Of a stretch of 38,851 nucleotides of DNA, positions 10,458 to 26,242 are shown piece by piece. The stretch lies in the IMG/VR virus record IMGVR_UViG_3300014208_000079, positions 1 through 38,851 of that record. The stretch is one strand, 5' to 3'. The notes under the pieces are model-generated. The model was not told the DNA's origin and searched no databases. It worked only from the letters and a program-made list of their open reading frames with translations. The position numbers and the translations under genes were made by a program. Position 1 is the first letter of the stretch. The number at the start of each line of letters is the position of its first letter. The DNA comes from a virus. Taxonomy: Duplodnaviria; Caudoviricetes.

Positions 10458-11162
10458 TTATTCACCCCAAGAAAATCCGCTATTTTGTCTATCTATATTT
10501 TTTATTTCTTGAGAATTGTTAGTCGGAGTTATAAAATTTTGTATAATCATCTGGTCCATAAGGGCCTTAGCCTTTTGTGCATATTTAGTTGAAATATCCG
10601 GCCTTTCTTCCTCAAATAAGACCGATAAGACGTCATAAACTAAGAAATAAGGTTTTTTAATTTCGGTAGTCGAAGTGGTCGCCGTAAATAGAGTAGGTAG
10701 TTTATAGTATGAATAAGCAATTGTTAGTCCGGCAGCCGTTGGAGTTGGATTAAGATGAAGCGTATATCCAACTTTTTCATTTCCTGTGATCCAGAAAAAC
10801 TTCTCTGAAGAATTATTGGTTTGTGCAAGTATTAAGTCATCATTAGTTTTGTGAGTATAAAAATTACCATCAACGGTAACGAGTGAGGAGATTTCAACAA
10901 AATCATCAGGCATTGCGTAAATTGCGTCATTTGCAGAAGTTGTTTTGTCTCCTGTTGCAGCATCAGCCAAGTCAACAAATAATTCATCCCATTTAATATT
11001 TTCTTCTTTTGCTCTGCCCCCATATGTTTCGATTGAATCGTTCAAGAAACTTCGGCGCACTAAATAATCCTCGCTAGTTGAAGCGGGTGTGCTACTATTC
11101 TTTTCATATTTTTTATGAATAATAGCCTGAAGCTGTGTTTCGGTTAAAGGTGATGTTGACAT
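10458..11162 (-). CDS. Head-tail adaptor (tail tubular protein A-like)
   Basis: Y.MPDDF and L.LNPTP...TIAYSYYKLP motifs; immediately precedes the nozzle gene. Confidence 0.75.
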   Translation of the reverse strand: MSTSPLTETQLQAIIHKKYEKNSSTPASTSEDYLVRRSFLNDSIETYGGRAKEENIKWDELFVDLADAATGDKTTSANDAIYAMPDDFVEISSLVTVDGNFYTHKTNDDLILAQTNNSSEKFFWITGNEKVGYTLHLNPTPTAAGLTIAYSYYKLPTLFTATTSTTEIKKPYFLVYDVLSVLFEEERPDISTKYAQKAKALMDQMIIQNFITPTNNSQEIKNIDRQNSGFSWGE

Positions 11163-11191: not shown

Positions 11192-11340
11192 AAAAAAACG
11201 GCCTTGTCTAGATTTGAATACACAAAGCTAAACAAAGCCGTTCACAGACTCCTTGAGGTAGGTTCCTCGGAGTCAAAACGTTAGCAATACTGCTAATCTA
11301 CTTTAATAGTACCAAACGTATCAAACTATTTCAACTCAAT
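11192..11340 (-). promoter_or_regulatory. Late promoter, structured leader and terminator (element A, before tail genes)
   Basis: TTGAAA (11329-34)-17nt-TACTAT (11306-11); hairpins TTAGCA/TGCTAA and GACTCC..GGAGTC; terminator 11192-11242. Confidence 0.75.
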
Positions 11341-14300
11341 TTTTTGAGATCGGATACGATTGATTTAATTTTAAAAGCAACCCTCTTTGGTTGTTTTATA
11401 GGTATTTTGGTTATTTTAATGGTGTTTTTAGGCATTTTGATTTTAAGCTTAGCTATTTTCTTTGGTTTTTTAACTTTAATTTTTTTAAATGCAATTTTTT
11501 TAGCCTTTGGTTTCTTAGTAAATTGAATATATCCTGCCAATGGAGGTAAACCTAGTTTTTCTCTTTGTTGATTGTTATAGGCAGTATTAGCGTCTAAATA
11601 TGCTTTTACTTGAGGATCTTTCCAATTTTTAGCATCCATTTGTGTTTGGACGTAGGCAGAAGCTATGGGTTTATTACTTGATTGAACTGTTCCAGGAATA
11701 GGATTTTCATCAAAATATTTACTTCTTATACTAAATAAGGCTACAAGTTCTGGATATGCTTTTGTCATATCTTTTCGATCTTGCGATCCCTCGGGAAGAG
11801 CTTCGTATCTCATATATTTTTTAGCTGTGTCATAGTTGACCAGATAAAGAGGATCTATTGCTTTCCCTGTCTTTTGAGCGGTTTGTAATTCAATTTGTTG
11901 TTTTGCTTCAAATACTTTTGGGTAAGTTAAATAAATTTGATACTTAAGTATTCGTGTGTTTGGATCGTTGCTATCAGATTTTGGAATAGCATTAAAAGCC
12001 TGTTGTTCTTGATCGCCTAAACCTTTTATTGCCTTGTCTTTTGCATCATAATAATAACCAGTGTCTATTGATTTATTGGTATAAAATCTAAAAGGTGCTT
12101 CCATTGCTCGAGAAAGTCTTTGATACATAGGGTCTTCTTGGTTTCTTGGATCTAGAAGTTCTTTCAAATACGGATGCGATAAATATTGTGTTCCTAAATA
12201 TTTTCCTATTGCTCCAAATTTTTCACCGGTTGTCATGTTTTCTTCAGTTATTGGCTTACCAAAGTAATCAGAATTAGCCGCTACATCAGCAAGGGGTCGA
12301 ATCATTGAAGAAGAATAGGTTTGAGAAGCGTCTTTTATTGCTCCAGAGATATCTCCCTGAGCAATCATTTTTCCTTCTCTAAAGATAGCCCTAGGCATCG
12401 TTGCAATTGAAGATAAATATGGAACTCCAAGAACTGTTCCATCTTTAAGAGGAATAAGCAACTTATCTTCTTTACCTTTTGGATTATCTAACATTGACCG
12501 GCCATTATTATAATGTCTGTTTAACTTATCATAGGCTAATGCCGTTAGTGTTGCACCAACCATAAATTTAAGATTAGATCTGTTTTCGAGCGCTAAAGGA
12601 TTTGCAAGAGATTTTATATTATTCAGCCAAAAGTTTATCATTGACTCACGATATCGAGGAGCAAATGCAAATGTTGATAAAACGTCTTTTCCTAATTGTC
12701 CTTGTTGTGCTGTTTTTGCTGTCGAAGTTAATCCATAGAAGTTTTTTGTTGCTTGAGATGCAATCTGAATAGCCTCTTCGGAACCTTTACCGGCATTGAG
12801 AGCAGCCTGTTTAGCATCTTTATAAAATTCTGTTTGAAGAACTGGCATAAAACGCTTAAAAGTAGGTTCATTAACTGTTTTATTCCATGCTTCTCCAATA
12901 CTTTTACCAAATAATCCCTCAATTGTGCCTTTTTTAACAAGACTTTCTGTGTTGAAGGTTGTTGAAATGGGAATATTGTTTAGTTGTTGTTCTTTGATAA
13001 ATTCTGCGTTATCACTAAAATATTTATTTGATCCTGTATCTGATAACGACGTCCAAATAGCTTTCAGAGGGCTTTTTACTCGTCCGGCCATAACCTCTTT
13101 TGTAACCTGTGCAAAAGTCCAAGCATTAATTGGAGTTTTTGGAAGTCCACCTGATAAAGTAATATCTTGAATCTTCGATGATATATTAGCCGGAATGCTC
13201 ATGGAGCTTTCTTGTTTTGAAAATACTTGATTAATTACCTTAGCAACTTCCGGCGGGGCATAATAAGCACCTTCTCTATAACCTCCATCACTCATTCTTG
13301 TTCTGGGCGCCGTAAATCCTTCTGCTGTAATTGGGACCAACCCTGGACCTCTTAAAGTTGATAGAAATCCTTGGTCTTTCAATTGGTTAGCAAATTCTAT
13401 ATTTGCTTTAGTTTTTTCAAGTTTTTTAGTGTATTCGGATAACAATTGGGCCGGATTAGTAAATTTTGGGTTAAGACCCATTTTTATACCCTCTTCGTAT
13501 GTCGGGTATTTTCGTTCTTTACTGAAATTAAATTTTTGACCTAATGTTTTATATAATTGTGCTACTTCTTCTTGGGGACGGTCCCAAATATGGGTGATAT
13601 AGTCTTTTAAATATCCAATATCAATCCCGCTTTTATTAGCATAATCATATAAATTATTAAACTCATTTCTTAATTTTCCTGAATATTGTTTGGCCTCTCC
13701 CGACACTTTGGCGTTTGGATTTTCCATGAATTTAATTACCTCATCGCCTTTTATGTTTGGAGGAACATTAAGTTTTGCCCCAGTTTGAACTCCAATAGTT
13801 GAAGAAGCGTTCCTTTTGCCTATCCATTCTGCAAATAATTTATCAAAGGCCTGTTTATTTTCGGTCGATCTGAATTTTGCTTGGTTAATCATCTGGTCTT
13901 GATCAAAGTTCGTCATACTTGGTATCTGATCAACATTACTACCCCTTTGTGGTTTATAAGTTCCCAACTCTCTTTTTAATTTATCCTGTTCCAATCCTTT
14001 TATAAAAGCGTCCTCATTTTTAATATTAAAATCCCTACCGGCTGTTTTTTTTGAAGTGGTAAGTAATATTCCTGGGAGTCTTTTCTTAGCCGCAAGTTGT
14101 TCTGGGGTGAGTTTCATACTGGCACTTTCTTCATTGCCAAATCTTACTATTTGATCTTTAAGAGGAATATTTTGGGAAGCATAGGGCGTAGTATATTTTC
14201 TTTGTTGCGGGGATAGGGGTTCTCTGAACTGAACATCACGAGCTTCTATTTCACCCGCAAGACGTTCATAAGTTTTAATTTTATCAATTTGACTTGGTTT

Positions 14301-15593
14301 ATAATTTAAAAGACCTTTAATTTCATCCTTTTTATTGTAAATCTCGTTGATTAATTTCTTTTTATATTGCTCAATACTTCCATTAAATCCAGATAGTTGT
14401 CTATTGGTTTCAAGTTCATGTGGAGAACTATTTATTATTTTATTTAAGGCTTCTTGTTCTTGGCTTAAGTTTTTAATTTTATTTGTAATATCAACATTAC
14501 CTTGTCTGCTTAATGTGAATTGATTTGGGCTACCACCCTTCGCAAATCCTTCTATATCTTGCAATCCATGTTGAACTTCATGAAGAATGGTTGATCGAAG
14601 TTCACCTGGTGAAAGTTTTGGGTTAAGATTAAGAGTGAAAGTTTTTGGATTGAAAGAGCCATTGTTGCCTTTCTCCATGGTATTATCAAACATTACTCGA
14701 AGTTTTTTAAGTTGAGGATATTGTGTATATAAACCCTCATGTTCAAAGATATCGCCTAATCGTGAGGCTCCTTCTTTTATTTTTTCACCTAAATTTTTTA
14801 CTTTTAGGAATGCTTGTCTATCGCTTATTTCAAATCTTGGCAATTTATCTGCGAGTGATGTAAAACCTTTTTGTTTAATAAGTTCTTCACCACGTTTAGC
14901 GTTTTTTCCTCCAAGTAAACCCATCATTAATGGAAATTCTGCTAAATTACCAACCATTTGACCTGTTGGATTTTTAGTTATAGCATCACCTAAACCCGCC
15001 GGTTTTTCTAGTGTTAAAGCGGGAATGCCACCTTTTTTTAACGCTTCAAACGTACCTAATTTTTTACCCTGATTTTGTATTTGATATGCTTTAGCCCCTT
15101 TAATTAAGTCATAAGCAGGCATAGCTAGATCCTGAATTGGATCGGGAAAAATAGTAGCAATTCCTCCGGCTAAACCTAATGCACCTTGACCTCTTTGAAT
15201 TAAAGTTTTATTTTTACCAAAAGCCATTTTTGCACTTGGAGCAATATTTGTAAGGGGGTCAATGTATCTATTTGCAACATAAGCTCCAGGAGAACCGAAT
15301 AATTTCTTAGTAAACCCGCTAAATGTAGGTGAAGGGTTATATAGTTCACTTTTTACATTACCTGCAAATGTTTTGATTGGTTGAGTAACTTTTTGAAAGT
15401 TTTGCTGTGTTTTCTGTGGTGAACTATATTGTGGAGCAAAGGGAATAAAAGGGGACACCTTCTGATAGGCGTTGGAGTAATTTTGCAACATAGCAGGAGC
15501 CTGTCTTACGACATTACCTGCAAAGTTGTTGACCCCACTACCAAAATCAGTTAACCTCTTTTTGAGAGAAGTGATTATTCCACTTATCTTCAT
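11331..15593 (-). CDS. Large polyvalent/internal virion (ejection) protein with LPD23-like zincin and LPD38-like regions
   Basis: FEISD, LYTQYPQL, ILHEVQHGLQDIEGFAKGGSP (HExxH), YERLAGEIEARDV, PLADVAANSDYFGKPI; Lys-rich C-terminal tail. Confidence 0.8.
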   Translation of the reverse strand: MKISGIITSLKKRLTDFGSGVNNFAGNVVRQAPAMLQNYSNAYQKVSPFIPFAPQYSSPQKTQQNFQKVTQPIKTFAGNVKSELYNPSPTFSGFTKKLFGSPGAYVANRYIDPLTNIAPSAKMAFGKNKTLIQRGQGALGLAGGIATIFPDPIQDLAMPAYDLIKGAKAYQIQNQGKKLGTFEALKKGGIPALTLEKPAGLGDAITKNPTGQMVGNLAEFPLMMGLLGGKNAKRGEELIKQKGFTSLADKLPRFEISDRQAFLKVKNLGEKIKEGASRLGDIFEHEGLYTQYPQLKKLRVMFDNTMEKGNNGSFNPKTFTLNLNPKLSPGELRSTILHEVQHGLQDIEGFAKGGSPNQFTLSRQGNVDITNKIKNLSQEQEALNKIINSSPHELETNRQLSGFNGSIEQYKKKLINEIYNKKDEIKGLLNYKPSQIDKIKTYERLAGEIEARDVQFREPLSPQQRKYTTPYASQNIPLKDQIVRFGNEESASMKLTPEQLAAKKRLPGILLTTSKKTAGRDFNIKNEDAFIKGLEQDKLKRELGTYKPQRGSNVDQIPSMTNFDQDQMINQAKFRSTENKQAFDKLFAEWIGKRNASSTIGVQTGAKLNVPPNIKGDEVIKFMENPNAKVSGEAKQYSGKLRNEFNNLYDYANKSGIDIGYLKDYITHIWDRPQEEVAQLYKTLGQKFNFSKERKYPTYEEGIKMGLNPKFTNPAQLLSEYTKKLEKTKANIEFANQLKDQGFLSTLRGPGLVPITAEGFTAPRTRMSDGGYREGAYYAPPEVAKVINQVFSKQESSMSIPANISSKIQDITLSGGLPKTPINAWTFAQVTKEVMAGRVKSPLKAIWTSLSDTGSNKYFSDNAEFIKEQQLNNIPISTTFNTESLVKKGTIEGLFGKSIGEAWNKTVNEPTFKRFMPVLQTEFYKDAKQAALNAGKGSEEAIQIASQATKNFYGLTSTAKTAQQGQLGKDVLSTFAFAPRYRESMINFWLNNIKSLANPLALENRSNLKFMVGATLTALAYDKLNRHYNNGRSMLDNPKGKEDKLLIPLKDGTVLGVPYLSSIATMPRAIFREGKMIAQGDISGAIKDASQTYSSSMIRPLADVAANSDYFGKPITEENMTTGEKFGAIGKYLGTQYLSHPYLKELLDPRNQEDPMYQRLSRAMEAPFRFYTNKSIDTGYYYDAKDKAIKGLGDQEQQAFNAIPKSDSNDPNTRILKYQIYLTYPKVFEAKQQIELQTAQKTGKAIDPLYLVNYDTAKKYMRYEALPEGSQDRKDMTKAYPELVALFSIRSKYFDENPIPGTVQSSNKPIASAYVQTQMDAKNWKDPQVKAYLDANTAYNNQQREKLGLPPLAGYIQFTKKPKAKKIAFKKIKVKKPKKIAKLKIKMPKNTIKITKIPIKQPKRVAFKIKSIVSDLKKLS

Positions 15594-15616
15594 ATTGTTA
15601 AATTAATTGGTAATGG

Positions 15617-16837
15617 TTACTTGGTCGTATCCCAAGGATTTTTCTTTACTGCCCAAGGATTTGTATAGTTATATGAATCTTGCTTCTGTTGAGGTCCATT
15701 CATAGCGTTCATTTGATTGAATACTATTGATTGTGGATCAAAATTAGAGTTGTTAGCGAGCTGTAATTTTAAAGCTGTTAAATTAGATAATTGTGTTTGA
15801 GCTTGTGATTGCATATTCATTGCAAATTGTCTACCTTCAGATTCAATCTGTGATAATTCGTTTTGAGCTCTAGATAACAAACCTGTTTCTAATTGATTAA
15901 GAGCTTGTACTTTTTCCAAAGGAACGCTTGCTTTCATTTCTTTTATTCTTGTTACCATTGGTAGGTATTTATCTCTAATACCCTGTAATTGTGTACCCTT
16001 CCATTGTTCAAGCTCCATTTTTTGACTATTAAAAGTTGTTTGTACATCAACAACCTTTTGATCAACTTGCATTAATTGGTCATTAATCTGTTTTTGTATT
16101 CCACCACGTTCATGAGCTGCAATCTTTGAATATGCATAGGCCGCCATTGGGGAAGCAGATGATGACCCGGCTCCCATAGCTCCAAGTTGAGCAGATGAGG
16201 CTTTAAGCATGTTTCTTAAGTTTGAAGAAAGGTCGGAGATTGAATTTTTACCTTGTGTTAGAACGTTTTGTTTTGATAGATCTAACTTTTGATTAGCAAG
16301 TGTTTGACCTTCTTGAATACCGCCAAACATACTATTGTATGTATCACCAGCGAGCTTTTCATCATTAGCCTGCATGGTTGGATACATGTTTGATATTTGG
16401 TCTAGGTTTGAAGAATATTGATCATAGCCTGAATTAATGTTGTTGCGAATAGTAGCATTACGGGCTTCAATTTCTCTCTGAAGAGAATCATCTTGACCTC
16501 CACCACCGCCTCCCAACGGCTCCCATTGAACACCATTCCATCTCATTCCATTTCTTTGATCTCCTACATTAGCTCCTTGAGCCTCATTAATATTAAATCC
16601 AGCAGGAGGAGGGTTGGTTTTAACACCACCCGTAGTAACTATTGGAGAGGATTTTTGCACGGGTTGAGTTGTTGGAGTTGGATTTGTATACTGAGGCCAA
16701 CTTGCCATACTTGCTCCACTATTTGGAGCAGGGGGTTGAAAAGGATTAACTCCTAAAGCTGGAGCATTTTTTTCTGTCCAACCAAAATCTGGGATATTCA
16801 TCCCCATGAAAGACCATTGTCCTGGTGTAATTGTCAT
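15617..16837 (-). CDS. Putative internal virion/DNA ejection protein
   Basis: Q/N/A/G-rich coiled coil with a MGAGSSS segment; position before the large internal protein. Confidence 0.65.
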   Translation of the reverse strand: MTITPGQWSFMGMNIPDFGWTEKNAPALGVNPFQPPAPNSGASMASWPQYTNPTPTTQPVQKSSPIVTTGGVKTNPPPAGFNINEAQGANVGDQRNGMRWNGVQWEPLGGGGGGQDDSLQREIEARNATIRNNINSGYDQYSSNLDQISNMYPTMQANDEKLAGDTYNSMFGGIQEGQTLANQKLDLSKQNVLTQGKNSISDLSSNLRNMLKASSAQLGAMGAGSSSASPMAAYAYSKIAAHERGGIQKQINDQLMQVDQKVVDVQTTFNSQKMELEQWKGTQLQGIRDKYLPMVTRIKEMKASVPLEKVQALNQLETGLLSRAQNELSQIESEGRQFAMNMQSQAQTQLSNLTALKLQLANNSNFDPQSIVFNQMNAMNGPQQKQDSYNYTNPWAVKKNPWDTTK

Positions 16838-16842
16838 ATTAT

Positions 16843-16870
16843 TTGAAAAAAATTAATAATTTGATATAAT
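16843..16870 (+). promoter_or_regulatory. Sigma70-type promoter giving a probably leaderless moron transcript
   Basis: TTGAAA-16nt-TATAAT with extended TG; the GTG start is 6 nt downstream of the -10 box. Confidence 0.7.
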
Positions 16871-16876
16871 GAGAGT

Positions 16877-17347
16877 GTGAGAAGGTTAATTGTTTATGTT
16901 CTTCTTTTTACTCTTTTTGTAGGGTTCCTTACTGTTGTAAAGACCCGTTCTTCGTCTAATTTAATTCCTCAAAAACAAATTAAAGAAATTAAAATAGATG
17001 AAAACAAACTGTTTAATTTGGTAAATACTTGGCGAAAATCTGTTAATTTAACCGAATATATAAAAGATGATCGTTTATGTGAGATCGCTAAAGACAGGGC
17101 TGATGATGAATTTGATCATCAAGGTTTTATTGATAAATATAGTAATAATCCAAATTATCCTAAAATTGCTATGCAGGAAAATTTATCTACTGCGTATGAC
17201 GAATTTGGTAGAGCCTTTAATAATAATCAAATTTTTTATGGATGGCTTTCTTCTGCTCCTCATAGAGAAACTCTTGAAAAACCATATAAATATTCGTGTA
17301 TTGTGTGTGACGAACAATGTGTCGAAATATTCGGAAATTATTTATAG
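16877..17347 (+). CDS. CAP/SCP-domain protein with N-terminal membrane anchor (moron)
   Basis: LVNTWRK...L..IAKDRA, H.GF, ENL and GWLSSAPHRETL CAP motifs. Confidence 0.85.
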   Translation: MRRLIVYVLLFTLFVGFLTVVKTRSSSNLIPQKQIKEIKIDENKLFNLVNTWRKSVNLTEYIKDDRLCEIAKDRADDEFDHQGFIDKYSNNPNYPKIAMQENLSTAYDEFGRAFNNNQIFYGWLSSAPHRETLEKPYKYSCIVCDEQCVEIFGNYL

Positions 17348-17362
17348 TTTTGAAAAATAAAT

Positions 17363-17995
17363 ATGATTAAATGGGTAATTGTTTTAGTTACCTTTTTGTT
17401 AATAATTATTTCTTCTGTTCAAGCCCATCCTGGTAATACCGCTTCTGACGGCTGCCATTATTGTCGAACTAATTGTAGTTCTTGGGGTGTTCCTTGGAAT
17501 CAAAAACATTGTCATAATACCTATAGACCTCAGCCTCAAATTAACTATACTTTTCCTCAAATGAATGCTGAATGGGACCTTTTACCCAATGACGATGGCC
17601 AAACATTTGATATTGGTATCACACTGAAAGATCCTAATCCTTCAAGATATAGTGTTACATTAAATAAATGTGCGGGTTGTGACCCTGGACCGCTTGTTGA
17701 TTGGTCTGATAATCATTTTTATTTTAAAAATATTTCTCAAGGTACTTGGTATATGAATATCAGAAAAGAAATAGGTGGTTATTGGTCAAATATTTCTTAT
17801 TGGACAATTAATGTTCCTGAATGGTATTCTCCACCGGCTCCAACATCCGTACCAATTCCAACACCTCAATCTTTTACAAATAAACATCCAGTAATTAGCG
17901 TCCTGGGATTATATTTTGGAGTAATCTTTGGCGTTGGCCTTACCGTAGTTCTTATCGGAAAAGTTATTGATTGGATAAAATCTAAATTTACCTAA
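17363..17995 (+). CDS. Secreted, C-terminally membrane-anchored protein with YHYH-like His/Cys N-terminus (moron)
   Basis: Signal peptide ending VQA; HPGNT..DGCHYCR...HCH; Pro/Thr linker; C-terminal TM helix. Confidence 0.75.
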   Translation: MIKWVIVLVTFLLIIISSVQAHPGNTASDGCHYCRTNCSSWGVPWNQKHCHNTYRPQPQINYTFPQMNAEWDLLPNDDGQTFDIGITLKDPNPSRYSVTLNKCAGCDPGPLVDWSDNHFYFKNISQGTWYMNIRKEIGGYWSNISYWTINVPEWYSPPAPTSVPIPTPQSFTNKHPVISVLGLYFGVIFGVGLTVVLIGKVIDWIKSKFT

Positions 17996-18015
17996 TTTAA
18001 AAGTGCAACTCTTCC

Positions 18016-18126
18016 TTAAACTAAATATTTAAGAGAGTTTCTGATTTGATTGACCTGGCTCACTCTTTTGGCCGGTCTTTTTGACATTTTCTTTTTCCCG
18101 CCTAAACGGGTATTGTTTTTTTTCAT
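18016..18126 (-). CDS. 36-aa very basic peptide (not in ORF track)
   Basis: MKKNNTRLGGKKKMSKRPAKRVSQVNQIRNSLKYLV*; first ORF downstream of element B. Confidence 0.5.
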   Translation of the reverse strand: MKKNNTRLGGKKKMSKRPAKRVSQVNQIRNSLKYLV

Positions 18127-18185
18127 GTTTAGCCTGATAAACTAGTAATTCGTACAATCTAAAAGTCATATGAAGTTTTAAAGCC

Positions 18186-18344
18186 AAAAAAAAATCCACC
18201 TGGCAAGTAGATTTTTATACTCTACTCCCTACAGTGGTTTACAGAGGTTGACGTTGCTTATTAAGCTCGCCTACCCTCAAAACAATATAGTCTTACCTAT
18301 ATTAATTACATCATACAGTATCAGTTTTCTATTTTCAACTCGAT
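18186..18344 (-). promoter_or_regulatory. Late promoter, structured leader and terminator (element B)
   Basis: TTGAAA (18333-38)-17nt-TATGAT (18310-15); hairpins AATATAG/CTATATT and GAGGGT..ACCTC; terminator AATCTACTT GCC AGGTGGATT plus T tract. Confidence 0.75.
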
Positions 18345-19000
18345 TTGTATTTTGCTCTAATTAAGTCAGCTTCGATCCGTATCTGGCGACGGGCTCTGTT
18401 TGAGTCCTGGTCCGGATGACAGGTATAGTCGATAAGACATTCGTCAATATAAGCATAGTCCGGATATATTTTCATTACTCTTAACCAATAATCATAATCT
18501 TGGACTAAAGAATAAGCCGGATCAAAGTCACCTACTTTCAAATAAACCTCTTTTGTCCAAAATACGGCGGGTAGTGGTATAAAATTGTGTCCTTTAAGAG
18601 TATTTAAATCTCCTCTTTGGCCCATTTCACCCAATAGCTCTCTTTTTAGATTGACTTTCATCACTTTTCCAAATAACCATTTTTTATCACCTAAATTGTC
18701 AATTACTTTCTGTAAACAATCAGGGTGCATAATATCATCATCAGCCTGAACATTAAATATATCTCCGGCACCTATTTGCATTCCCATATTACCTACTTGA
18801 AATCCTTGCCTGTCAACACAATACATGTATGTTATTCTTTTGTCCTTGAGTAGATCTCGAATAGTATCAATTCCTTTACCTTCTCCTTGTTCATTAATAA
18901 TTAATTGCCAGTCGGTATAAGTTTGATTAACAATCGCTTCAACTGCTCTCCGAATTAAGTGTGGCCGGTTCCACGTGCCCATTATAATAGTAAATTTCAT
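18335..19000 (-). CDS. Glycosyltransferase family 2
   Basis: FTIIMGTWNR, SI/AIVNQTY-type motif, ADDD (DxD), QDYDYWLR. Confidence 0.9.
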   Translation of the reverse strand: MKFTIIMGTWNRPHLIRRAVEAIVNQTYTDWQLIINEQGEGKGIDTIRDLLKDKRITYMYCVDRQGFQVGNMGMQIGAGDIFNVQADDDIMHPDCLQKVIDNLGDKKWLFGKVMKVNLKRELLGEMGQRGDLNTLKGHNFIPLPAVFWTKEVYLKVGDFDPAYSLVQDYDYWLRVMKIYPDYAYIDECLIDYTCHPDQDSNRARRQIRIEADLIRAKYKSS

Positions 19001-19896
19001 ATATGTTGTTTATAAAGTTTGATTAATTTGGTTCCTATATCCTCCCAACTAGGAACATGATCAGTATTTCTTGGTTTGTCCCAGGCGTTTGTAATAGCCT
19101 CCATTAATTCTTCAATATTTTTAGGATTAACTACTATTGAAGATGGAAGTAAGTCATTTCCTCGATTATAAACACTGTCAACTATAGGAAGACCACAATT
19201 AGCCGCTTCAAGCACCCCTAGAGATTGTCTTTCAGTTAAAGATGGACAAACATATAGTCGGCTTCTTTTAAGAATATTAGCAACTTCCTTTTCTGTAATA
19301 TTTTCAAAATATTCGTCAAACATGGGTATTAATTTATAAGCTTCGGGGTCATTAGAATCAGAAGATATATATCGAAGTTTTTTACCTAATCGTTTACACG
19401 CTTCAATTAAATATTGCGGTCCCTTCATTTGCTGTAGTCGACCTATTGAGACAATAAAATCATCACGTTTTGTATCGTCTTTATAAAAAACCTCTTTATT
19501 TACTCCATTTGAGATAATTGAAATTAAATTAGGATCACAATGAAGTAAATCAATCATTTCCTGTCTCTCTGCGGTTGATAATGCTATTGTTTGGAGCGAA
19601 TTATCAATAAATCCCTTCATTTCCATGAATGAAACACCGTATTCTTTTGGAAAAAAGATAGAAGAAATAAAGTAGGGTTTTCTAGCAGATATTAATCTAG
19701 TGCAGATGTCTTTTGTCCACTTGAAGTTTACGTGAAAAACGTGAACGAAGTTAAAATTATCAAAAGAGATATTAGGATCGCATGAATATTCACAATCTAC
19801 TCCAAGCTTTTGAAGAATAGTCATGGTATTTTCAACTTGAACGGCGTCACCACCCTTCCAAGCGTCATGGTTTCGGTTGTACAGTAGTATTTTCAT
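18997..19896 (-). CDS. Glycosyltransferase family 4 (GT-B)
   Basis: GGD, IISNGV, IGRL..MKG and PSLTE..SLGVLEAANCGLP motifs. Confidence 0.9.
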   Translation of the reverse strand: MKILLYNRNHDAWKGGDAVQVENTMTILQKLGVDCEYSCDPNISFDNFNFVHVFHVNFKWTKDICTRLISARKPYFISSIFFPKEYGVSFMEMKGFIDNSLQTIALSTAERQEMIDLLHCDPNLISIISNGVNKEVFYKDDTKRDDFIVSIGRLQQMKGPQYLIEACKRLGKKLRYISSDSNDPEAYKLIPMFDEYFENITEKEVANILKRSRLYVCPSLTERQSLGVLEAANCGLPIVDSVYNRGNDLLPSSIVVNPKNIEELMEAITNAWDKPRNTDHVPSWEDIGTKLIKLYKQHI

Positions 19897-20998
19897 AAGC
19901 TCCGATTACTCCATTTAAGAAATTAGCCCAATCAACTGTTATTTCATTAATGTCTCTATTCTTTTTGACATATTCATACGCATTATTTCCAATAGTTAGC
20001 CTTTTTATAGGGTCTTTAATTAGTTCAACCAATTGATCATAAAATTCCTGTACGTTTTTGTACAACATACCATTATGGTTGTGCCTAATATCGTCAGTAT
20101 ACGGAGGTATATTTCGACCAATTATAGGTACACTTAACGCTCCAAACTCATAAAACCTAATACTTGATTTATGATAGTTAAAAGTAATATCTTTCAGAGG
20201 AGCAATACCAATGTCAGCGTTAACACACGCCATTCTATATCCGTGTCCATCAGCCATAATCCAGTCAGCAGTATGAACCCTATCTTTTGGAAGGTAATTA
20301 ATTATCGCTTCAAAAGGTACGCCATAAAAATAGAAATGAGTGTTTGGATATTCTCTCATCACCTGGCCCAATACCGGTGCTATCTCGATTAAATCCGGAA
20401 AATGACTACTTCCACCCATAAAACAAATTCGTATTTCGTCTTTAGTTTTTTCAGCTTTAACTTTTGGAAAAATATCAAAATCTATTGAGTTGGGAATTAT
20501 AACAACATTTTTATTAAATTTTTCTGCGTAGTTTTTAAGTTGAAAGGTTGTGACAATAACTGCCGTAGCTTTCTTTAATATTTGATGATAATTATCCAAA
20601 CGTTTTTGATTAGCTTTAATTGAAAAACCATCTTCTCCGTCTTTCCATAAATATTTACCGTTACTCATTTTAACTTCTTTAGTTCCATAGACTAAATAAA
20701 AGTCGGACAAAGGATCTACTGTATCATAATTATCATCAATATCAAGAATAACCGGCTTCCCTAGTTTAAAGACGTTTATATCATCAAGTAGTTGATAGGC
20801 GGTCCCGTCACTCAATCTACACAAAAAAGCATCGGTTTTATTAAGCGCTTCTGTTAGTTGATCAACGGATAGTGAATTAATTTCAAGAAAGCGAGCGTCA
20901 AGAAGTTTCTTTTTGCGAGCAATGAGAGCAAATTGTTTTAATCTATACCATGTGCATCCGTCCATTCCGTCAGGACGCATTATTATAACCTTTTTCAT
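19865..20998 (-). CDS. Glycosyltransferase (GT4-like, GT-B)
   Basis: GCTWYRL, DIDD, IIPNSID and DIGIAPL...FN..KS.IRFYE motifs. Confidence 0.9.
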   Translation of the reverse strand: MKKVIIMRPDGMDGCTWYRLKQFALIARKKKLLDARFLEINSLSVDQLTEALNKTDAFLCRLSDGTAYQLLDDINVFKLGKPVILDIDDNYDTVDPLSDFYLVYGTKEVKMSNGKYLWKDGEDGFSIKANQKRLDNYHQILKKATAVIVTTFQLKNYAEKFNKNVVIIPNSIDFDIFPKVKAEKTKDEIRICFMGGSSHFPDLIEIAPVLGQVMREYPNTHFYFYGVPFEAIINYLPKDRVHTADWIMADGHGYRMACVNADIGIAPLKDITFNYHKSSIRFYEFGALSVPIIGRNIPPYTDDIRHNHNGMLYKNVQEFYDQLVELIKDPIKRLTIGNNAYEYVKKNRDINEITVDWANFLNGVIGAYENTTVQPKP

Positions 20999-21300
20999 AG
21001 TTTATGTCGTTCAATTACTCTCCATTCTGGAGCAATTTTATTAAAGAATTCCTTATCTTTCCAATATTCTTCTCCATATATCTTTGAAAAGAATCGGTCA
21101 ACCTCAAGAGGAACCCAGGCAATCTTTCTCATGGATTTAGATTTATTTCCATGATCATAAGTACCATATTTTTTAGCGTCATTAATAACTTTAAAAGCAT
21201 CTTTGGAGTTATAAATATCAATAACTTCCTGTCTTCGTTTTTTATTAATGCCTTCCGATATTTGTTGAATTGCTTTATCGAAATCTGTTTGTAAATCCAT
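20995..21300 (-). CDS. Hypothetical protein
   Basis: 101 aa between the capsid gene and the glycosyltransferases; SMRKIAWVP motif. Confidence 0.7.
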   Translation of the reverse strand: MDLQTDFDKAIQQISEGINKKRRQEVIDIYNSKDAFKVINDAKKYGTYDHGNKSKSMRKIAWVPLEVDRFFSKIYGEEYWKDKEFFNKIAPEWRVIERHKL

Positions 21301-21343
21301 ATTGATTCGAGAAGTGGAATTTCTTCCACTCCTCTAGATCAAT
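21301..21343 (-). promoter_or_regulatory. Stable hairpin between the capsid gene and the downstream gene, abutting its ATG
   Basis: ATTGAT..GAGGAGTGGAA GAAA TTCCACTTCTC..ATCAAT with no U tract. Confidence 0.6.
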
Positions 21344-21352
21344 ACTTGAGGG

Positions 21353-22246
21353 TTAGCTCAAATCTGTGATCGAACCGTTTCCGGCTTCCTGTCTAGCTTC
21401 GAGTGTCAATTCTGTTTCTATGACCATTCTCTTAGCAGATCCTACCACCGCAACGTCAATCTTTTCAGTCGGTCTATAAATAGCGACTTTCCATAGATTT
21501 TCATCTAGGATATGAACCGTGTCAGTAGGTAGTCTTCGGTGAGGATATATTTTGATTCGACCAAAGTCGGAATCATAAACATCTACACCTGTAACTATTT
21601 CCTTAGTCGAAGCTTCTACACTTTTGGTAGCACTACCCGTAAAGGTTGAGATTGCTCTCTTTTGAGTACCATTAGCATAAGCTGACTTTGGACTTCCGCC
21701 CGCTTCCCAGATATCTTGTAAATTATCGTTAAACATGTCTTCAGTTAAGGCTTCTGAGCCTGTTCCTGTTCCTGTTTCGACGTTAGTCGTAATCCAAGAA
21801 TCGACACCTTTTAACAATCTACCAGTACCTGTAGCACCGGAATTACCCGTACCAGAAACTAGGGCTTTTTCTATTTTGATAGCATGTTCTTTCATTTTCT
21901 TAGCTACCTGATAGGTGAATTCGTTATCGATTCCTGCAGCGTCAGCCGCCATTTGAGATCGTGAAACCTCAACTGGTGTGACAAAGATCTGAGTATCGTT
22001 TGATAAACGAGTTCTTGCACCTGGTTTACTGAATGAATAATCGGCGCCTTCAATGTGACCTGAATTTGCTGGATCGTCCAACGAATCGGTCAACCATGAA
22101 TGGAGCGTATTAGAAGCTTTTGATTTACCAAATTTAGAAAGGTAAGGAGTTTCCTCTGGAGAAATGTTTGTTACAACATTTAACAGGGATTCTTTATTTC
22201 CTACACCATTTTCCTCATAGGTAAGTTTAGCTGTTGATTGTGCCAT
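21353..22246 (-). CDS. Major capsid protein (DUF5309/SU10-like)
   Basis: NISPEETP, HSWLTDSL, IEGAD, N.TQIF, VYDSDFG motifs; follows the scaffold gene. Confidence 0.9.
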   Translation of the reverse strand: MAQSTAKLTYEENGVGNKESLLNVVTNISPEETPYLSKFGKSKASNTLHSWLTDSLDDPANSGHIEGADYSFSKPGARTRLSNDTQIFVTPVEVSRSQMAADAAGIDNEFTYQVAKKMKEHAIKIEKALVSGTGNSGATGTGRLLKGVDSWITTNVETGTGTGSEALTEDMFNDNLQDIWEAGGSPKSAYANGTQKRAISTFTGSATKSVEASTKEIVTGVDVYDSDFGRIKIYPHRRLPTDTVHILDENLWKVAIYRPTEKIDVAVVGSAKRMVIETELTLEARQEAGNGSITDLS

Positions 22247-22280
22247 GTGAATTTATAAAAGTGCGTTAGTATCCGAATCC

Positions 22281-23099
22281 TTATAGTAACTTTTTCAAAT
22301 GTTCAGCCCAACTCTCAGTTGTACCTGATTCCTTAGCTGCTTCAAATGAACTGTTAAACTCTTCGTTTCCGGTCTTATCGCCCTGTGAAGATGGACGTAT
22401 TGCCGATTCTTGTCCCGTTTGAGACAATTTTCCCGAAACGTTAGCTGTTGCTTTTGCTATTTGTGCATCCAGTAATTTCTTCTGTTTTGCATAAATATCT
22501 GACATTTTTACCCGTGGGACAAATTCTTCCTTTCCTGTGAAAGGATTCACCTGATAATTAGCCAATTTATATTGCTCTGCAACTGTCTCATCCATTGCAT
22601 CATCGCCCTTCAAAAGTTCAGCAGTTTTATCTGCGTCTGCTAGATGATCTTTGATCGTGTCTTTAAATTGAGTTTCAGCAGCTATCTCGTTTTTAATACT
22701 TTGTCTCAAGGACATCTCTCGAGCTTGCTGTCTTCTTTCCAATTCAACTGGATCAATACCACCATCTGCTATTTCGTTGGGATTAATTAAAGGTTGATTA
22801 GGGTTTAATCCAAGAATCTCGTTTATATCTGGAGCAACTCCATTAGTTTGATTCTGGTCCTTTTCCTTTAACTTTCCGATGAGTTTTTGGACTCGCCTTT
22901 CGTATCTTGTAGGCTTATTTCCATCTTCGGAATTATTAACTTGTTCTTCCTTTTTTTCTGGAGTGGAATTCTCCGCAGTCTGTTGACTTTCAACATTGGT
23001 TTGATCAACCTTTGTCTCTACTTCTGAGTTGGCTCTGGACTCAACGCTGTTAGACTCGGCAGCGGGTGTTTGTTCTACGCCATTTTTTTGGTCATCCAT
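22281..23099 (-). CDS. Capsid scaffolding protein
   Basis: Acidic low-complexity N-terminus, coiled coil, position directly before the major capsid gene. Confidence 0.8.
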   Translation of the reverse strand: MDDQKNGVEQTPAAESNSVESRANSEVETKVDQTNVESQQTAENSTPEKKEEQVNNSEDGNKPTRYERRVQKLIGKLKEKDQNQTNGVAPDINEILGLNPNQPLINPNEIADGGIDPVELERRQQAREMSLRQSIKNEIAAETQFKDTIKDHLADADKTAELLKGDDAMDETVAEQYKLANYQVNPFTGKEEFVPRVKMSDIYAKQKKLLDAQIAKATANVSGKLSQTGQESAIRPSSQGDKTGNEEFNSSFEAAKESGTTESWAEHLKKLL

Positions 23100-23172
23100 A
23101 CAAAATTAGACCTAATTATTAACAGACCACTTTAAGTTGGGTCGACCGCACTAAAGCTTATTACTGATCGGG

Positions 23173-23226
23173 TAAAGAGCTTACAATGATCGGCTTCCGT
23201 ATAAACCGGCCATTGTCAGACCTTTA
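23173..23226 (-). promoter_or_regulatory. Long hairpin in the scaffold gene leader
   Basis: ACAATGGCCGGTTT pairs with AAGCCGATCATTGT, extended by TAAAG/CTTTA. Confidence 0.55.
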
Positions 23227-23310
23227 TCAAATATTTTGTCTAGAACTCTGTCAGTAAATCTTTTATTTCGTTTACTTCCTGAAATATGAGATCTGTGAGT
23301 TGACCTGTAT

Positions 23311-23583
23311 TTACTTCTTTGAATTTTCATGTTTAGTAATTATTGGGTTACCTTCTTTATCTATACCCGTTAATCTTTCTTCTCCTGAAATTCTAAAACC
23401 ATGAGGATTTTCACAAGATTTGCAAATAATCCATCCACCTTTTTGTCTCCAGGTGTGCCTTACACTTTTAGCTTTTTCTACTGCTCTTCTTCGTATTTCC
23501 TCAATTTGTTCATCAGTTATAAAAGCAATTGGCTCATCCTTCTGTTTGTTTTCCTGCTTCTCGGATTGTTTGTGCATAAGCAT
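23311..23583 (-). CDS. Small Zn-ribbon-like protein
   Basis: HTWRQKG..IICKSCENPHG motif; the true start may be downstream. Confidence 0.65.
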   Translation of the reverse strand: MLMHKQSEKQENKQKDEPIAFITDEQIEEIRRRAVEKAKSVRHTWRQKGGWIICKSCENPHGFRISGEERLTGIDKEGNPIITKHENSKK

Positions 23584-23875
23584 CTGGTCGCATCATCATT
23601 TCTGTCAACTTAGCGATAATTGCCCTACAGGCTAAATATTTAAATCCAATAGTTGTCACGTCCAATCCTTGAAGATCATCACCTTGCATTTTATTAATAT
23701 TTTCAATTTCTTTTTCAAATTCTTTTTTATAAGCTTCCCACCTCGGATCTCCTGAAAGCGCTGCAACCTGACTTTGCTCTTCTGTTGCTATTTCCAATTC
23801 GCTCTTAGGTTCAATTATTCTTTTAAAAGTATTAAAAACCGGACTAGCTGCCGGAGGAACTGCGCTATCATTCAT
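23534..23875 (-). CDS. Hypothetical protein (portal-adjacent)
   Basis: 113-aa ORF 4 nt after the portal stop; P.WE.YK motif. Confidence 0.7.
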   Translation of the reverse strand: MNDSAVPPAASPVFNTFKRIIEPKSELEIATEEQSQVAALSGDPRWEAYKKEFEKEIENINKMQGDDLQGLDVTTIGFKYLACRAIIAKLTEMMMRPDAYAQTIREAGKQTEG

Positions 23876-23879
23876 AAGT

Positions 23880-25913
23880 TTATTGTCTACCGCTTAATTC
23901 ATTTAAAATTTGTTGTGATTCCATTGATAAACCTTCGGCCATTCCATTAAAAGGTGGCTGTTCAAAATTTGTTGATTCTTGTGGCTGTTGTATTACTTGA
24001 CCTTGTGGCATTCCCTGAGGAGCCCCCATATTTGGTGCTCCAACTGAAGGCATTCCAGGTGAAGGAGGTAACCCACCCTCTTGACCACCCATTATTTGTT
24101 CTATACCTGGTCCAGTCGGCTGTTGGCCTGGGATCATTTGACCTGGTTGAGCTTGTGAAGCTTTCATAGCTTCCTCTGCCTGAATCTGTTGTAATTCTTC
24201 CGGTTGTAATTCTGAAACTATTTCTTCCGGATCTTGAATACCTGACGTTGATACAAATTTCTTTATGGTTTGTGCAATATCTATTTTCTTATTACCCATG
24301 ATTACAAATCCTTTTGCCATAGCCTGTTCCATAGCTCCTGGGAATTTAGCAACAGTCGCTAAAATAGTGTCTAGTGTTTGATTCTCAATAGCCTGATCCT
24401 TTTTAACTGTTGAAGATGGATCAATAAAGAATTTATATTTAACCGTTTTATCTTTATCTTTCAAAAATTCCGGTTTAATCGTAACTTCGCCGTAATTACC
24501 TGATTCAAACATTTCGGTTAGATCCGGATTGTATTTTTGTATTGATTCAAGTTCTTTTTTAAACAAATTCATCTTAATCGGTTTTTCTTGTTTTGTTGCA
24601 ATAAGGTTAACCATCTTATCAAACACTTTACCCATTGATTCGTCCATCATTTTCTGATCAAAATTACTTCTGGCCTGGTCAAAAGCCGCTTGCATCTTTA
24701 ATGCTTGAGGAGATTTACCCATTCCTGCAGCAAAATCTTCACCTGAAGTAGTATCAGTCGTCCCTGCTGCGTTTAATAATGCTCCTTTTAAGAATGAATA
24801 GGTAGCTTGGAATGAATTAATTCCTTGTGGACTTCGTGTATGCTCTGTTATAGCATTAACATTCATGTTTTTCAAAACCCACTTAGCTCCTGGTTCGTCG
24901 GCAATTGTGGAGGCAACCAAATCAGGAAGATAGAGCTTAAGTGGTGGATGAAGAGACATCTTTATCCCTTGCAGGTACAACGCAATCAAAGAATTGATTG
25001 AGTTTTGAAGAGGGTTCAATCTCTCATATTCGCCCAGTCCATGATATCTATCAATTAATGGAAAACAGTGTTTAGAAACTATAGGTAATTCACCTTGAAT
25101 ACCTTTATTATCAATATCTCGAAGTGTTAGTTTTGTATCTCTTGAAAATGTAAACCAACGATCACCTTCATAGGTTGTGATGATCTCAATGTCATCAACT
25201 TCATCTTTACCAGTTCCAATTGTTGAATTGTTGTTTTTACTTTCATTATATGATTGAAGTTCACTATCTTCTTTTGGACCCTTTGTTTGTTCGAGTAATT
25301 TATCTATATTTTTCCACGTTTTTGTATCACGACTTAACAACCATTTTCTAGAAACGTTTGAAATAACAGAATAACGATCGCAGTCATCAATTGAAATTCT
25401 ATTCTTTTGAGGAATACCACGTCTTTTTGGAATTAAATACCAATCCGGACCAACATATTTATCAGTGACTACATAATCAACTAAAACATCATAAGTTCCG
25501 AAGAATAGTGAGTAAAATTCCCACATCCAGGCTTTTGTGAACATGTCATGTTGAGTTTTGGCGTTAGGAATAACATATTTACGAAGAATAAGGTCCATTG
25601 CAATGTTTTTACCTGCGTCTGCTTTGGTTATAGCTTGAACTTTACCTGTAGGAAGTTGACCGATTGTTGCGTTGGTTCTTTTAATGATAGCCGTGTGCAT
25701 TGACATATCATTAATTTTTGATCCTGACTTATTTGAAGTATATGAGTCGACCGGCATACCAATAATTGATTTTTCTTTATCCTCCCATGAGGATCTTTCA
25801 ACTGAGAGGGCATCAAAATCGGCTTCAAAACGATCTATATAAGTTTTTGCAGTTGTATCTAATTTGCTACCTGAAGATTTAGCCTTGGTTGTAGTTTCTT
25901 TTTTGGATTTCAT
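23880..25913 (-). CDS. Portal protein (podoviral, P22-like)
   Basis: Size; YHGLGEYE.L.PLQ..IN, PGAKW; Q/P/G/M-rich C-terminal tail; lies between terminase and scaffold. Confidence 0.85.
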   Translation of the reverse strand: MKSKKETTTKAKSSGSKLDTTAKTYIDRFEADFDALSVERSSWEDKEKSIIGMPVDSYTSNKSGSKINDMSMHTAIIKRTNATIGQLPTGKVQAITKADAGKNIAMDLILRKYVIPNAKTQHDMFTKAWMWEFYSLFFGTYDVLVDYVVTDKYVGPDWYLIPKRRGIPQKNRISIDDCDRYSVISNVSRKWLLSRDTKTWKNIDKLLEQTKGPKEDSELQSYNESKNNNSTIGTGKDEVDDIEIITTYEGDRWFTFSRDTKLTLRDIDNKGIQGELPIVSKHCFPLIDRYHGLGEYERLNPLQNSINSLIALYLQGIKMSLHPPLKLYLPDLVASTIADEPGAKWVLKNMNVNAITEHTRSPQGINSFQATYSFLKGALLNAAGTTDTTSGEDFAAGMGKSPQALKMQAAFDQARSNFDQKMMDESMGKVFDKMVNLIATKQEKPIKMNLFKKELESIQKYNPDLTEMFESGNYGEVTIKPEFLKDKDKTVKYKFFIDPSSTVKKDQAIENQTLDTILATVAKFPGAMEQAMAKGFVIMGNKKIDIAQTIKKFVSTSGIQDPEEIVSELQPEELQQIQAEEAMKASQAQPGQMIPGQQPTGPGIEQIMGGQEGGLPPSPGMPSVGAPNMGAPQGMPQGQVIQQPQESTNFEQPPFNGMAEGLSMESQQILNELSGRQ

Positions 25914-25918
25914 AGCAT

Positions 25919-26054
25919 AAAAAAAGACACGCTATATGTTTGCGTGTCTATGGATCACTGACTTGCTAGGGTTTCTAGAACGTCAGAGATCAAGAACTAT
26001 AATGTAGTAACTACTTATAACTGTATCAGACTATTTCATCAATTTCAACTCGAT
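25919..26054 (-). promoter_or_regulatory. Late promoter, structured leader and terminator (element C, before portal)
   Basis: TTGAAA (26043-48)-17nt-TACAGT (26020-25); bulged hairpin GATC.CTGAC..CTAG AAACC CTAG CAA GTCAG.GATC; terminator AGACACGC/GCGTGTCT plus T tract. Confidence 0.75.
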
Positions 26055-26242
26055 ATTTTGTCGTCGAAGTTAAATTCCTTGTCCATGTTCCATGTCACAG
26101 TATTAATTAGACCTTTATGAATATCTAAAGTAAATTTTAAGTTTGTAGTTTCTTTATTGTCAAGGCTTAATTTTATCCTCTTTATTATTTCCCCCAGTGC
26201 CTTGAGGTTTTCGTTGGTTGAAGTATTTGATTTCTTTTCCAT
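26045..26242 (-). CDS. Small protein, possible C-terminal half of the upstream ORF
   Basis: LKFTLDIHKGLINTV beta pattern; overlaps the upstream ORF by 83 nt. Confidence 0.55.
   Translation of the reverse strand: MEKKSNTSTNENLKALGEIIKRIKLSLDNKETTNLKFTLDIHKGLINTVTWNMDKEFNFDDKISS

What the first reader, a model, noticed from the sequence alone, without database searches (positions are those of the whole stretch)
11192..26054. Repeated promoter-leader-terminator element before each late operon (candidate antitermination system)
Seen: three intergenic elements (11192-11340 before tail genes, 18186-18344 before the basic peptide/ejection genes, 25919-26054 before portal) share one architecture. 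Each has AT(C/T)GAG-TTGAAA-17nt-TAnnnT with TGATAC in or overlapping the spacer, a small first hairpin, a GTT(T/CT)TGA linker, and a second hairpin with a 3' (C)AA bulge whose paired bases differ between copies. This is followed by C-(TGTGAAC/TGTAAAC/CATAGAC) and a strong intrinsic terminator before the first gene. Element B has an alternative AGTAGA/TCTACT pairing that would disrupt its terminator. A looser version (two TGATAC boxes and a terminator) precedes tRNA-Trp copy 1. Knowledge: lambda Q binds between the -35 and -10 boxes, and HK022 put RNAs are two-hairpin antiterminators. No Q, N or sigma gene is recognisable here. Inference: late genes are held off by attenuation and released by a phage factor or by the RNA itself.
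Basis: partly seen in the sequence, partly recalled or inferred. Interest (0 to 1): 0.8.

Follow-up and report, generated by a model that had tools for sequence, protein, structure and literature searches.

The report
RNA gates on prophage late operons
In front of its head, DNA-ejection and tail genes, this prophage, likely of an ultra-small (CPR) bacterium, carries a predicted promoter, an RNA hairpin and a predicted transcription stop signal that share bases, and a small uncharacterised phage protein encoded just before the first of them likely binds the hairpin and would let transcription continue.

Summary
The three elements are real. All lie on the - strand: sigma70-type promoter, hairpin leader, intrinsic terminator. 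They are the only strong terminators between integrase and the tRNA region. First, the GUU(U/C)U linker can pair with the first bases of the terminator, forming a competing antiterminator hairpin. Second, a small DUF2292/YezD-like gene (X, split into two frames here) ends in the portal element's promoter. Relatives keep this layout: 38 of 48 X-bearing portal clusters have a terminator before portal, against 0 of 7 without X (only three independent losses; not significant after tree correction). Two complete X-bearing genomes have three gates at the same positions. Bacterial DUF2292 genes are often followed by a covarying hairpin that overlaps a terminator. Q-like and put-like readings are not supported: TGATAC reads as an extended -10 and is not conserved, and B's alternative pairing is itself a terminator. 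Best model (about 0.6): X binds each nascent hairpin and releases late transcription locally. Binding, start sites and readthrough are untested, and in A and B the overlap is short. This scan has noted the same kind of system on other DNA; my paper searches found no description.

The parts
25919..26054 (-). Gate C before portal: -35 26048-26043, extended -10 26025-26020, predicted start about 26013, antiterminator hairpin 25997-25946, terminator 25949-25925 plus U tract
   Evidence: same position in relatives
18186..18344 (-). Gate B after the glycosyltransferases: -35 18338-18333, -10 18315-18310, predicted start about 18303, first hairpin 18303-18284, antiterminator 18283-18237, terminator 18237-18196 plus U tract; positional counterpart of the gate before the 406-aa ejection gene in relatives
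   Evidence: for position
11192..11340 (-). Gate A before the adaptor/nozzle/tail/lysis genes: -35 11334-11329, -10 11311-11306, predicted start about 11299, first hairpin 11296-11281, antiterminator 11280-11238, terminator 11242-11195 plus U tract
   Evidence: adaptor gates in G129, G130, G131
26160..26423 (-). Gene X, N-terminal alpha-beta-beta domain (DUF2292/YezD-like); ATG at 26423, alternative TTG at 26447; candidate RNA-binding antiterminator (inferred)
   Evidence: 40.8 bits on the N-half profile; profile match to DUF2292
26045..26242 (-). Gene X, C-terminal alpha-beta-beta domain, in a frame offset from the N-half; its stop codon lies in gate C's -35 box
   Evidence: 47.2 bits on the C-half profile; no indel in contigs of 2 runs; same split in L039
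26134..26163 (-). Second promoter-like site (TTGACA-18-TAAAAT, 11 of 12) inside X, upstream of gate C; role untested
37144..37171 (-). Strong promoter-like site (TTGACA-16-extended TATACT) that would drive the early/terminase/X transcript; no strong terminator between it and gate C
23880..25913 (-). Portal, first gene behind gate C
   Evidence: Pfam SU10_portal E 1.5e-6, below the curated cut-off
18016..18126 (-). 36-codon basic ORF directly behind gate B; not shown to be a gene
15617..16837 (-). 406-aa putative ejection protein gene (name by position and analogy); homologues in relatives are directly preceded by a gate
10458..11162 (-). Adaptor, first gene behind gate A
   Evidence: Pfam SU10_adaptor E 3.7e-11
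4027..4160 (-). Looser element before tRNA-Trp: terminator, two extended -10-like TGATACnnT boxes, a short hairpin overlapping a second terminator; lacks the shared motif
38710..38850 (-). 3' end of host ftsZ, marking the prophage boundary and host
   Evidence: 100% match to a 377-aa FtsZ; nearest named homologues Patescibacteria and Ca. Roizmanbacteria

Best explanation
Each of the three elements is a predicted promoter followed by a leader whose linker can pair with the first bases of a predicted intrinsic terminator, and the phage's small DUF2292/YezD-like protein X likely binds this hairpin and would let RNA polymerase read into the late operon. Shown by sequence or comparison: the three cassettes; the competing base helix; X's position and family resemblance; the same layout in relatives; a comparable hairpin behind bacterial DUF2292 genes. 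Inferred: the host's housekeeping polymerase fires the three promoters even in the lysogen and stops after about 95-120 nt. After induction the long early transcript (promoter about 37171) delivers terminase and X. X then binds the internal-loop/base-helix junction of each nascent leader, holds the antiterminator and, probably helped by steric cover of the terminator arm, allows readthrough. The effect would be local, which explains one gate per operon. Here X would act as two separately made domains or as a frameshift product.
For: X lies just before portal in 48 of 55 portal clusters with at least 300 nt of upstream sequence. A terminator follows in 38 of 48 (35 automatic, 3 confirmed; the window counts as one) and in 0 of 7 X-less clusters; uncorrected Fisher p 1e-4. 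Several X-less clusters keep a promoter-like site (by eye). Complete X-bearing genomes G129 and G130 each have three late-strand gates, before portal, ejection gene and adaptor. In 52 cassettes from 35 clusters the leader pairs with the terminator's 5' arm more than controls: mean gain 3.1 kcal/mol against 2.1 (own shuffles, p 0.002), 1.8 (swapped) and 1.8 (163 promoter-less terminators, p 1e-4). A single hairpin with base helix and internal loop forms in 39 of 52, against 39% of swaps and 35% of shuffles, with varied pair types. Copies within a genome are more alike than between genomes (22 vs 1304 pairs, p 0.003). X profile vs bacterial DUF2292: probability 91%, E 1e-6; one X (L096) passes the PF10055 cut-off and its hairpin fits the bacterial descriptor. 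12 of 24 bacterial DUF2292 loci carry G(C/U)U-GA-stem-loop-stem-A-GGC, which overlaps a terminator's 5' arm where one was called; 5 of 7 pairs show two-sided changes. The X model is a four-stranded sheet on two helices, pLDDT 78, with conserved basic and aromatic columns.
Against: No RNA or binding data. The X-less state arose only 3 times on the portal tree; sign test p 0.25. 10 of 48 X-bearing clusters have no terminator before portal. The X-less cluster G124/G125 still has a terminator-like hairpin before its ejection-gene homologue. In this window the overlap is short: in A a -16.3 kcal/mol hairpin followed by CG and a U tract survives; in B the base helix takes only the lowest G-C pair and the A-U extension; only C is clearly abolished (-11.4 to -0.5). 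Over 43 cassettes the residual hairpin is weaker than -6 in only 21. Per cassette the signal is modest: the own terminator arm beat at least 90% of foreign ones in 14 of 52; these tests ignore relatedness. The window's hairpins do not fit the bacterial descriptor, and the window's X halves hit neither PF10055 nor NF033785. The bacterial hairpins were picked by a descriptor that demands pairing, so their paired percentage is circular. X is split here and may be dead.
Confidence: 0.6

Rival explanations
1. X binds the leader hairpin but acts on RNA polymerase, as lambda N does with nut (recalled); the hairpin is a loading site and antitermination is processive or steric rather than a structural switch.
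For: Short overlap and strong residual hairpins in A and B; B's transcript must cross two antisense genes to reach the ejection genes.
Against: The leader pairs with its own terminator arm more than controls; many relatives and the bacterial loci overlap the G-C core of the terminator; each operon has its own gate, which a processive factor would not need.
Confidence: 0.13
2. The cassettes are X-independent: leaky terminators or host-controlled attenuators that set late-gene dosage, or small-RNA genes; X does something else (for example in packaging or the neck).
For: A terminator-like hairpin persists before the ejection gene in an X-less cluster; only 3 independent X losses; X's best structural matches include neck/tail-terminator proteins at background Z 5-6.7; X is split in the window.
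Against: A hairpin-terminator also follows DUF2292 genes in bacterial chromosomes; 0 of 7 X-less clusters have a terminator of -8 or stronger before portal; leader sequences differ widely between genomes, unlike a target of one host factor.
Confidence: 0.17
3. Q/AlpA-like: a DNA-binding phage protein recognises TGATAC or ATYGAG at the promoter and loads onto polymerase.
For: ATYGAG before -35 and TGATAC are shared by the three copies; promoter-flank similarity within genomes is slightly raised (p 0.02-0.04); the prophage's left end lies outside the window, so a regulator may be unseen.
Against: TGATAC has no fixed position, reads as an extended -10 and occurs in 2 of 49 relatives' cassettes; no pause-element enrichment; no conserved spacer motif in the column counts; no Q or AlpA family hit among 61 ORFs.
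Confidence: 0.06
4. put-like: the two-hairpin RNA itself modifies polymerase, without a phage protein.
For: A and B have two adjacent hairpins over about 60-65 nt.
Against: The first hairpin is weak in C and missing in most relatives; a constitutive RNA antiterminator directly before its own terminator would give no timing; X co-occurs with the gates.
Confidence: 0.04

Closest known systems
BglG/SacY/LicT antiterminators with RAT hairpins (recalled, no paper read)
   Same: Protein-stabilised hairpin with internal loop that overlaps the 5' arm of an intrinsic terminator in a leader; local action; small beta-sheet domain acting in pairs.
   Different: Unrelated protein family (no such hit); no PRD domains; no Rfam match in the window; controls phage late operons; proposed trigger is synthesis of the protein.
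DUF2292 / YezD / OscA small proteins (Pfam PF10055, NCBIfam NF033785)
   Same: alpha-beta-beta unit, single or tandem; profile match 91%, E 1e-6; tandem DUF2292 clusters among the structural look-alikes, TM 0.51-0.55; gene followed by hairpin plus terminator.
   Different: The window's halves fall below the family models; longer hairpin with another loop motif; a promoter lies between gene and hairpin. My searches found no molecular function for the family in print.
Lambda Q / Pseudomonas AlpA at promoter-terminator leaders (PMC7969949, passages read)
   Same: Promoter held silent by a nearby intrinsic terminator until a positive regulator appears.
   Different: Q and AlpA use a DNA element between -35 and -10 and bypass heterologous terminators; here no spacer element is conserved and each operon has its own RNA-level gate.
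HK022 put RNA (PMC8632103 and PMC9378689, passages read)
   Same: About 65-nt nascent RNA with two hairpins near a promoter.
   Different: put needs no phage protein, binds the beta' zinc-binding domain and acts at a distance; here the second hairpin overlaps its own terminator and the first is not conserved.
Mu Com/mom translational activation (recalled; comparison prompted by e1-5990487)
   Same: Small phage protein opening an RNA structure in a late leader; may apply to X-bearing relatives whose hairpin covers the ribosome site instead of forming a terminator.
   Different: The window's gates are transcriptional; no Com family hit for X.

Membership tests
DUF2292/YezD/OscA | Score above the PF10055 curated cut-off (22 bits) | tested here: not met
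   No hit for either window half. Among relatives 1 of 16 passes (L096, 23.5 bits) and 7 more hit below the cut-off; 2 of 8 others hit weakly.
DUF2292/YezD/OscA | Remote homology and alpha-beta-beta unit | tested here: met
   hhalign 91%, E 1e-6 to single-domain bacterial members; 40%, E 3e-4 to tandem ones; model topology; Atlas structure rows.
DUF2292/YezD/OscA | Adjacent GYU-GA-stem-A-GGC hairpin (defined here from bacterial loci, not a published criterion) | tested here: not met
   The window's hairpins do not fit; cassettes of L086 and L096 do, plus one AU-rich match in L099 (3 of 52).
BglG/SacY-RAT | Antiterminator hairpin overlapping the terminator's 5' arm | tested here: met
   Overlap present in all three copies, but only about 1-6 nt of the stem.
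BglG/SacY-RAT | CAT RNA-binding domain with PRD domains | tested here: not met
   No such Pfam or PHROG hit among 61 ORFs or in X members.
BglG/SacY-RAT | Protein binding raises readthrough | not testable with these tools
   Needs binding and transcription assays.
Lambda Q / AlpA | Conserved DNA element at a fixed place between -35 and -10 | tested here: not met
   Spacer positions 6, 10, 15; 2 of 49 relatives' cassettes; flat column counts.
Lambda Q / AlpA | Sigma-dependent pause element just after the start (recalled for Q) | tested here: inconclusive
   23 of 52 against 19.5 expected, P 0.2; start sites are predicted.
Lambda Q / AlpA | Q- or AlpA-family gene | tested here: inconclusive
   None among 61 ORFs, but the prophage continues beyond position 1.
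HK022 put | Conserved two-stem RNA with critical G35-A9 | tested here: not met
   First hairpin weak in C and missing in most relatives; G35 equivalence was not aligned.
HK022 put | Protein-free, processive antitermination via the beta' zinc-binding domain | not testable with these tools
   Needs in vitro transcription.
Rfam RNA families | Covariance-model match | tested here: not met
   Window: two tRNAs and one weak miRNA match elsewhere, nothing in the elements; 17 loci: only SAM and cobalamin riboswitches upstream of bacterial DUF2292 genes.

The most novel reading that the evidence does not exclude
DUF2292/YezD/OscA is an unrecognised family of RNA-binding attenuation proteins used by bacteria and by phages. 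In these CPR podoviruses it replaces Q as the late-gene switch, opening one RNA gate per operon, with protein and hairpin diverging together, acting on termination in some lineages and on translation initiation in others, and working here as a natural two-part protein.
Probability: 0.45. Interest if true: 0.85.

Novelty: new variant of a known kind. Interest (0 to 1): 0.66.

Why it matters
From recalled knowledge, temperate phages switch on late genes with DNA-loaded antiterminators, activators or sigma factors; a small RNA-binding protein that opens a separate attenuator before each late operon would be a further route. It would give a testable molecular function to DUF2292/YezD/OscA, show how prophages of uncultured CPR bacteria stay silent, and supply compact protein-RNA pairs of differing specificity for synthetic gene control.

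Tried and rejected
Readthrough of the shared TGA stop: further in-frame stops follow within 1-11 codons (read). B's alternative pairing as the switch: rejected. 'Two X genes match two leader classes' in L041/L043: the second small ORF scores about 0 bits on X profiles, so the protein side is not shown; the two leader classes remain. Fold searches of the X model: no Foldseek match at E 0.001; best VIA Z 6.9, background level; this does not show a new fold. Complex prediction of the two window halves: no verdict, score 0.23 against a mark of 0.32. Sequencing runs: no RNA holder listed. Single-protein portal scan of viral contigs found nothing; the alignment scan did. No match in the GenBank phage collection for X or portal. 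Cluster look-up gave no host names. GTDB hits labelled Micrarchaeota are 9-10-kb contigs, possibly mis-binned; not used for the host. Paper searches (listings only): DUF2292 (2 papers); antitermination+phage+terminase+portal+attenuator (43); yezD (46, swamped by unrelated words); oscA+sulfur starvation (47); ribonucleic antiterminator+phage+late genes (65, none); yezD+Bacillus subtilis+terminator (68); antiterminator+RNA-binding protein+bacteriophage+late gene (69); oscA+antiterminator (95); Patescibacteria+prophage+antitermination (96, none); HK022+putL (97). No listing described this system; the library lacks most subscription journals, and supplements of RNA-motif surveys were not seen and could hold the hairpin. 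Earlier-finding look-ups by sequence (48), place (79) and a second word set (113) were empty.

Full report
Setting. The window is a record of 38,851 nt with an integrase, a split terminase, and SU10-type portal, capsid and adaptor genes. Its right end holds the last 46 codons of ftsZ, identical to a 377-aa FtsZ on a 125,909-nt contig; the nearest named homologues are from Patescibacteria, including Ca. Roizmanbacteria. The portal protein is also recorded on a contig of that length. I read this as a prophage of a CPR host. Only 1 of 29 late and packaging genes has a Shine-Dalgarno-like motif.

Observation. The three elements are present as described, on the - strand, and are three of only five strong hairpin+U6 sites on that strand. 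Details needing correction are listed under the observation check. In all three, the -35 box supplies the stop codon of the upstream ORF. This also holds for 14 of 52 cassettes overall, so I take it as genome compaction, not a signal.

The switch. Folding the nascent RNA up to the start of the terminator gives, in all three copies, a base helix between the GUU(U/C)U linker and GAAC/AAAC/AGAC, the first bases of the terminator arm. Forcing this helix in the full leader costs 3.6 (A), 1.5 (B) and 7.7 (C) kcal/mol. The weakness is that the overlap is short: C's terminator collapses, but A keeps a -16.3 kcal/mol hairpin and B loses only its lowest pairs. Base-pair competition alone may not explain A and B; a bound protein covering the arm would have to help (inference).

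Relatives. Scans gave 153 loci, which reduce to 59 portal clusters at 90% identity; 4 lacked 300 nt upstream and were dropped, leaving 55. A small gene X sits just before portal in 48. It is either a tandem of two alpha-beta-beta units (about 100-125 aa) or a single unit (60-90 aa). In most a sigma70-type promoter overlaps or follows its end. A terminator follows in 38 of 48, and in 14 of the 35 automatically called cases the portal ATG directly follows the U tract. None of the 7 X-less clusters has one of -8 kcal/mol or stronger; 3 have weak AU-rich hairpins. A search of 5 X-less records found no X (2 near complete, both from one cluster), while 3 X-bearing controls scored (these were in the profile); single-domain profiles also found nothing in G124/G125. 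The uncorrected association is strong (p 1e-4) but rests on 3 independent losses (p 0.25). Complete X-bearing genomes G129 and G130 have three late gates at the window's positions; G131 showed the adaptor gate under the strict finder and terminators at the other two places. The strict finder found no late gate in G124/G125, but a relaxed look found a terminator-like hairpin before their ejection-gene homologue, which counts against a clean rule. Of the 10 X-bearing clusters without a terminator, several have a hairpin abutting the start codon or covering a Shine-Dalgarno sequence (by eye), suggesting translational versions.

RNA statistics. From 58 promoter-terminator pairs I kept the first terminator per promoter with a leader of at most 100 nt: 52 cassettes, 35 clusters, a few probably spurious. 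Leader-to-terminator pairing exceeds three controls, and the base-helix/internal-loop form appears in 39 of 52 against 35-39% in controls; a pyrimidine-pyrimidine mismatch flanks the base helix in 16. Primary sequence is clade- and genome-specific. None of these tests corrects for relatedness.

Protein X. The model has a four-stranded antiparallel sheet on two helices and no clear solved relative. 284 representatives at 50% identity match the profile. It is remotely homologous to DUF2292/YezD/OscA. In the window the two units lie in different frames. Contigs from two runs show no indel (either may be the source of this DNA). L039 is split in the same linker, and both halves keep 41-47 bits on half-profiles, so a working two-part or frameshifted form is plausible but not shown.

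Bacterial counterpart. PF10055 was found in 21 of 121 sampled genomes of one phylum. Of 30 loci, 6 were second domains of the same gene and were dropped. Of 24, 17 have a terminator within 200 nt and 12 carry a GYU-GA-stem-A-GGC hairpin. In 11 of these (one near-duplicate left out), 5 of 7 pairs change on both sides and 0 of 500 shuffles match this (the set was selected for pairing). Two loci lie behind SAM riboswitches and one behind a cobalamin riboswitch. The hairpin itself has no Rfam match. The phage X closest to the family (L096) has a hairpin of this bacterial type; the window's do not.

Mechanism and rivals. I commit to X-dependent local antitermination (0.6). The rivals are X-independent dosage control or small RNAs (0.17), N-like action on polymerase (0.13), Q/AlpA-like (0.06) and put-like (0.04). 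Features of Q/AlpA and put come from passages of PMC7969949, PMC8632103 and PMC9378689; BglG/RAT, lambda N and Mu Com are recalled. The labels 'ejection', 'nozzle' and 'scaffold' rest on position and analogy, not on family hits.

Novelty. It works like protein-dependent attenuation of the RAT type but is not a member of that family; the protein family has no function in the papers I could search (ten searches, listed under Tried and rejected). Seven earlier notes of this scan describe the same kind of system in other genomes; they are unchecked and are not counted as evidence. This report adds the three-gate layout in complete genomes, the X-less comparison with its limits, and a split X.

Noticed in passing
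window:38710-38850 (-): Host ftsZ 3' end directly before the integrase; the prophage appears integrated just behind ftsZ. Attachment sites not sought.
   Followed up: partly
window:26045-26423; L039:2145-2466: Gene X is split in the same inter-domain linker in two non-sister phages; in both, an ATG in the second frame lies within the conserved YGK codons.
   Followed up: partly
window:31833-35466 (-): RNA-repair cluster: RNA ligase, RlaP-like nucleotidyltransferase, polynucleotide kinase/phosphatase and a tRNA-Trp; a second tRNA-Trp at 3930-4002. Possible counter-defence against tRNA-cutting nucleases (inference).
   Followed up: no
window:16843-17995 (+): Antisense two-gene moron (CAP-domain protein and a membrane protein) with its own strong promoter; in G129 and G130 the CAP gene lies upstream of the ejection-gene gate, here it lies between gate and gene.
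   Followed up: partly
window:27162-28809 (-): Large terminase in two ORFs (331 and 219 aa); also two-part in several relatives, one piece in others.
   Followed up: no
window:18335-20998 (-): Three glycosyltransferase genes behind the capsid gene; the first is conserved in relatives.
   Followed up: no
L064, L077, L079, L080, L097, L007, L104, L098 upstream of portal: X-bearing relatives with hairpins over the ribosome site or start codon instead of a terminator: candidate translational form of the gate.
   Followed up: partly
L041:9723-9893 and L043:3740-3928: A second small conserved ORF between X and the portal gate, not matching X profiles, in the two genomes that carry two leader classes.
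   Followed up: partly
L015 portal 5634-8564: Portal ORF of 976 aa with an insertion; a 972-aa portal homologue (P0025) carries PF05204 and PF14528 domains, which from recall suggests an intein.
   Followed up: no
L156, L159, L175: Bacterial DUF2292 genes sit between a SAM or cobalamin riboswitch and the hairpin-terminator, a double layer of attenuation.
   Followed up: partly
window:100-127 (-): Strong leftward promoter-like site pointing out of the window, probably to an unseen repressor gene.
   Followed up: no
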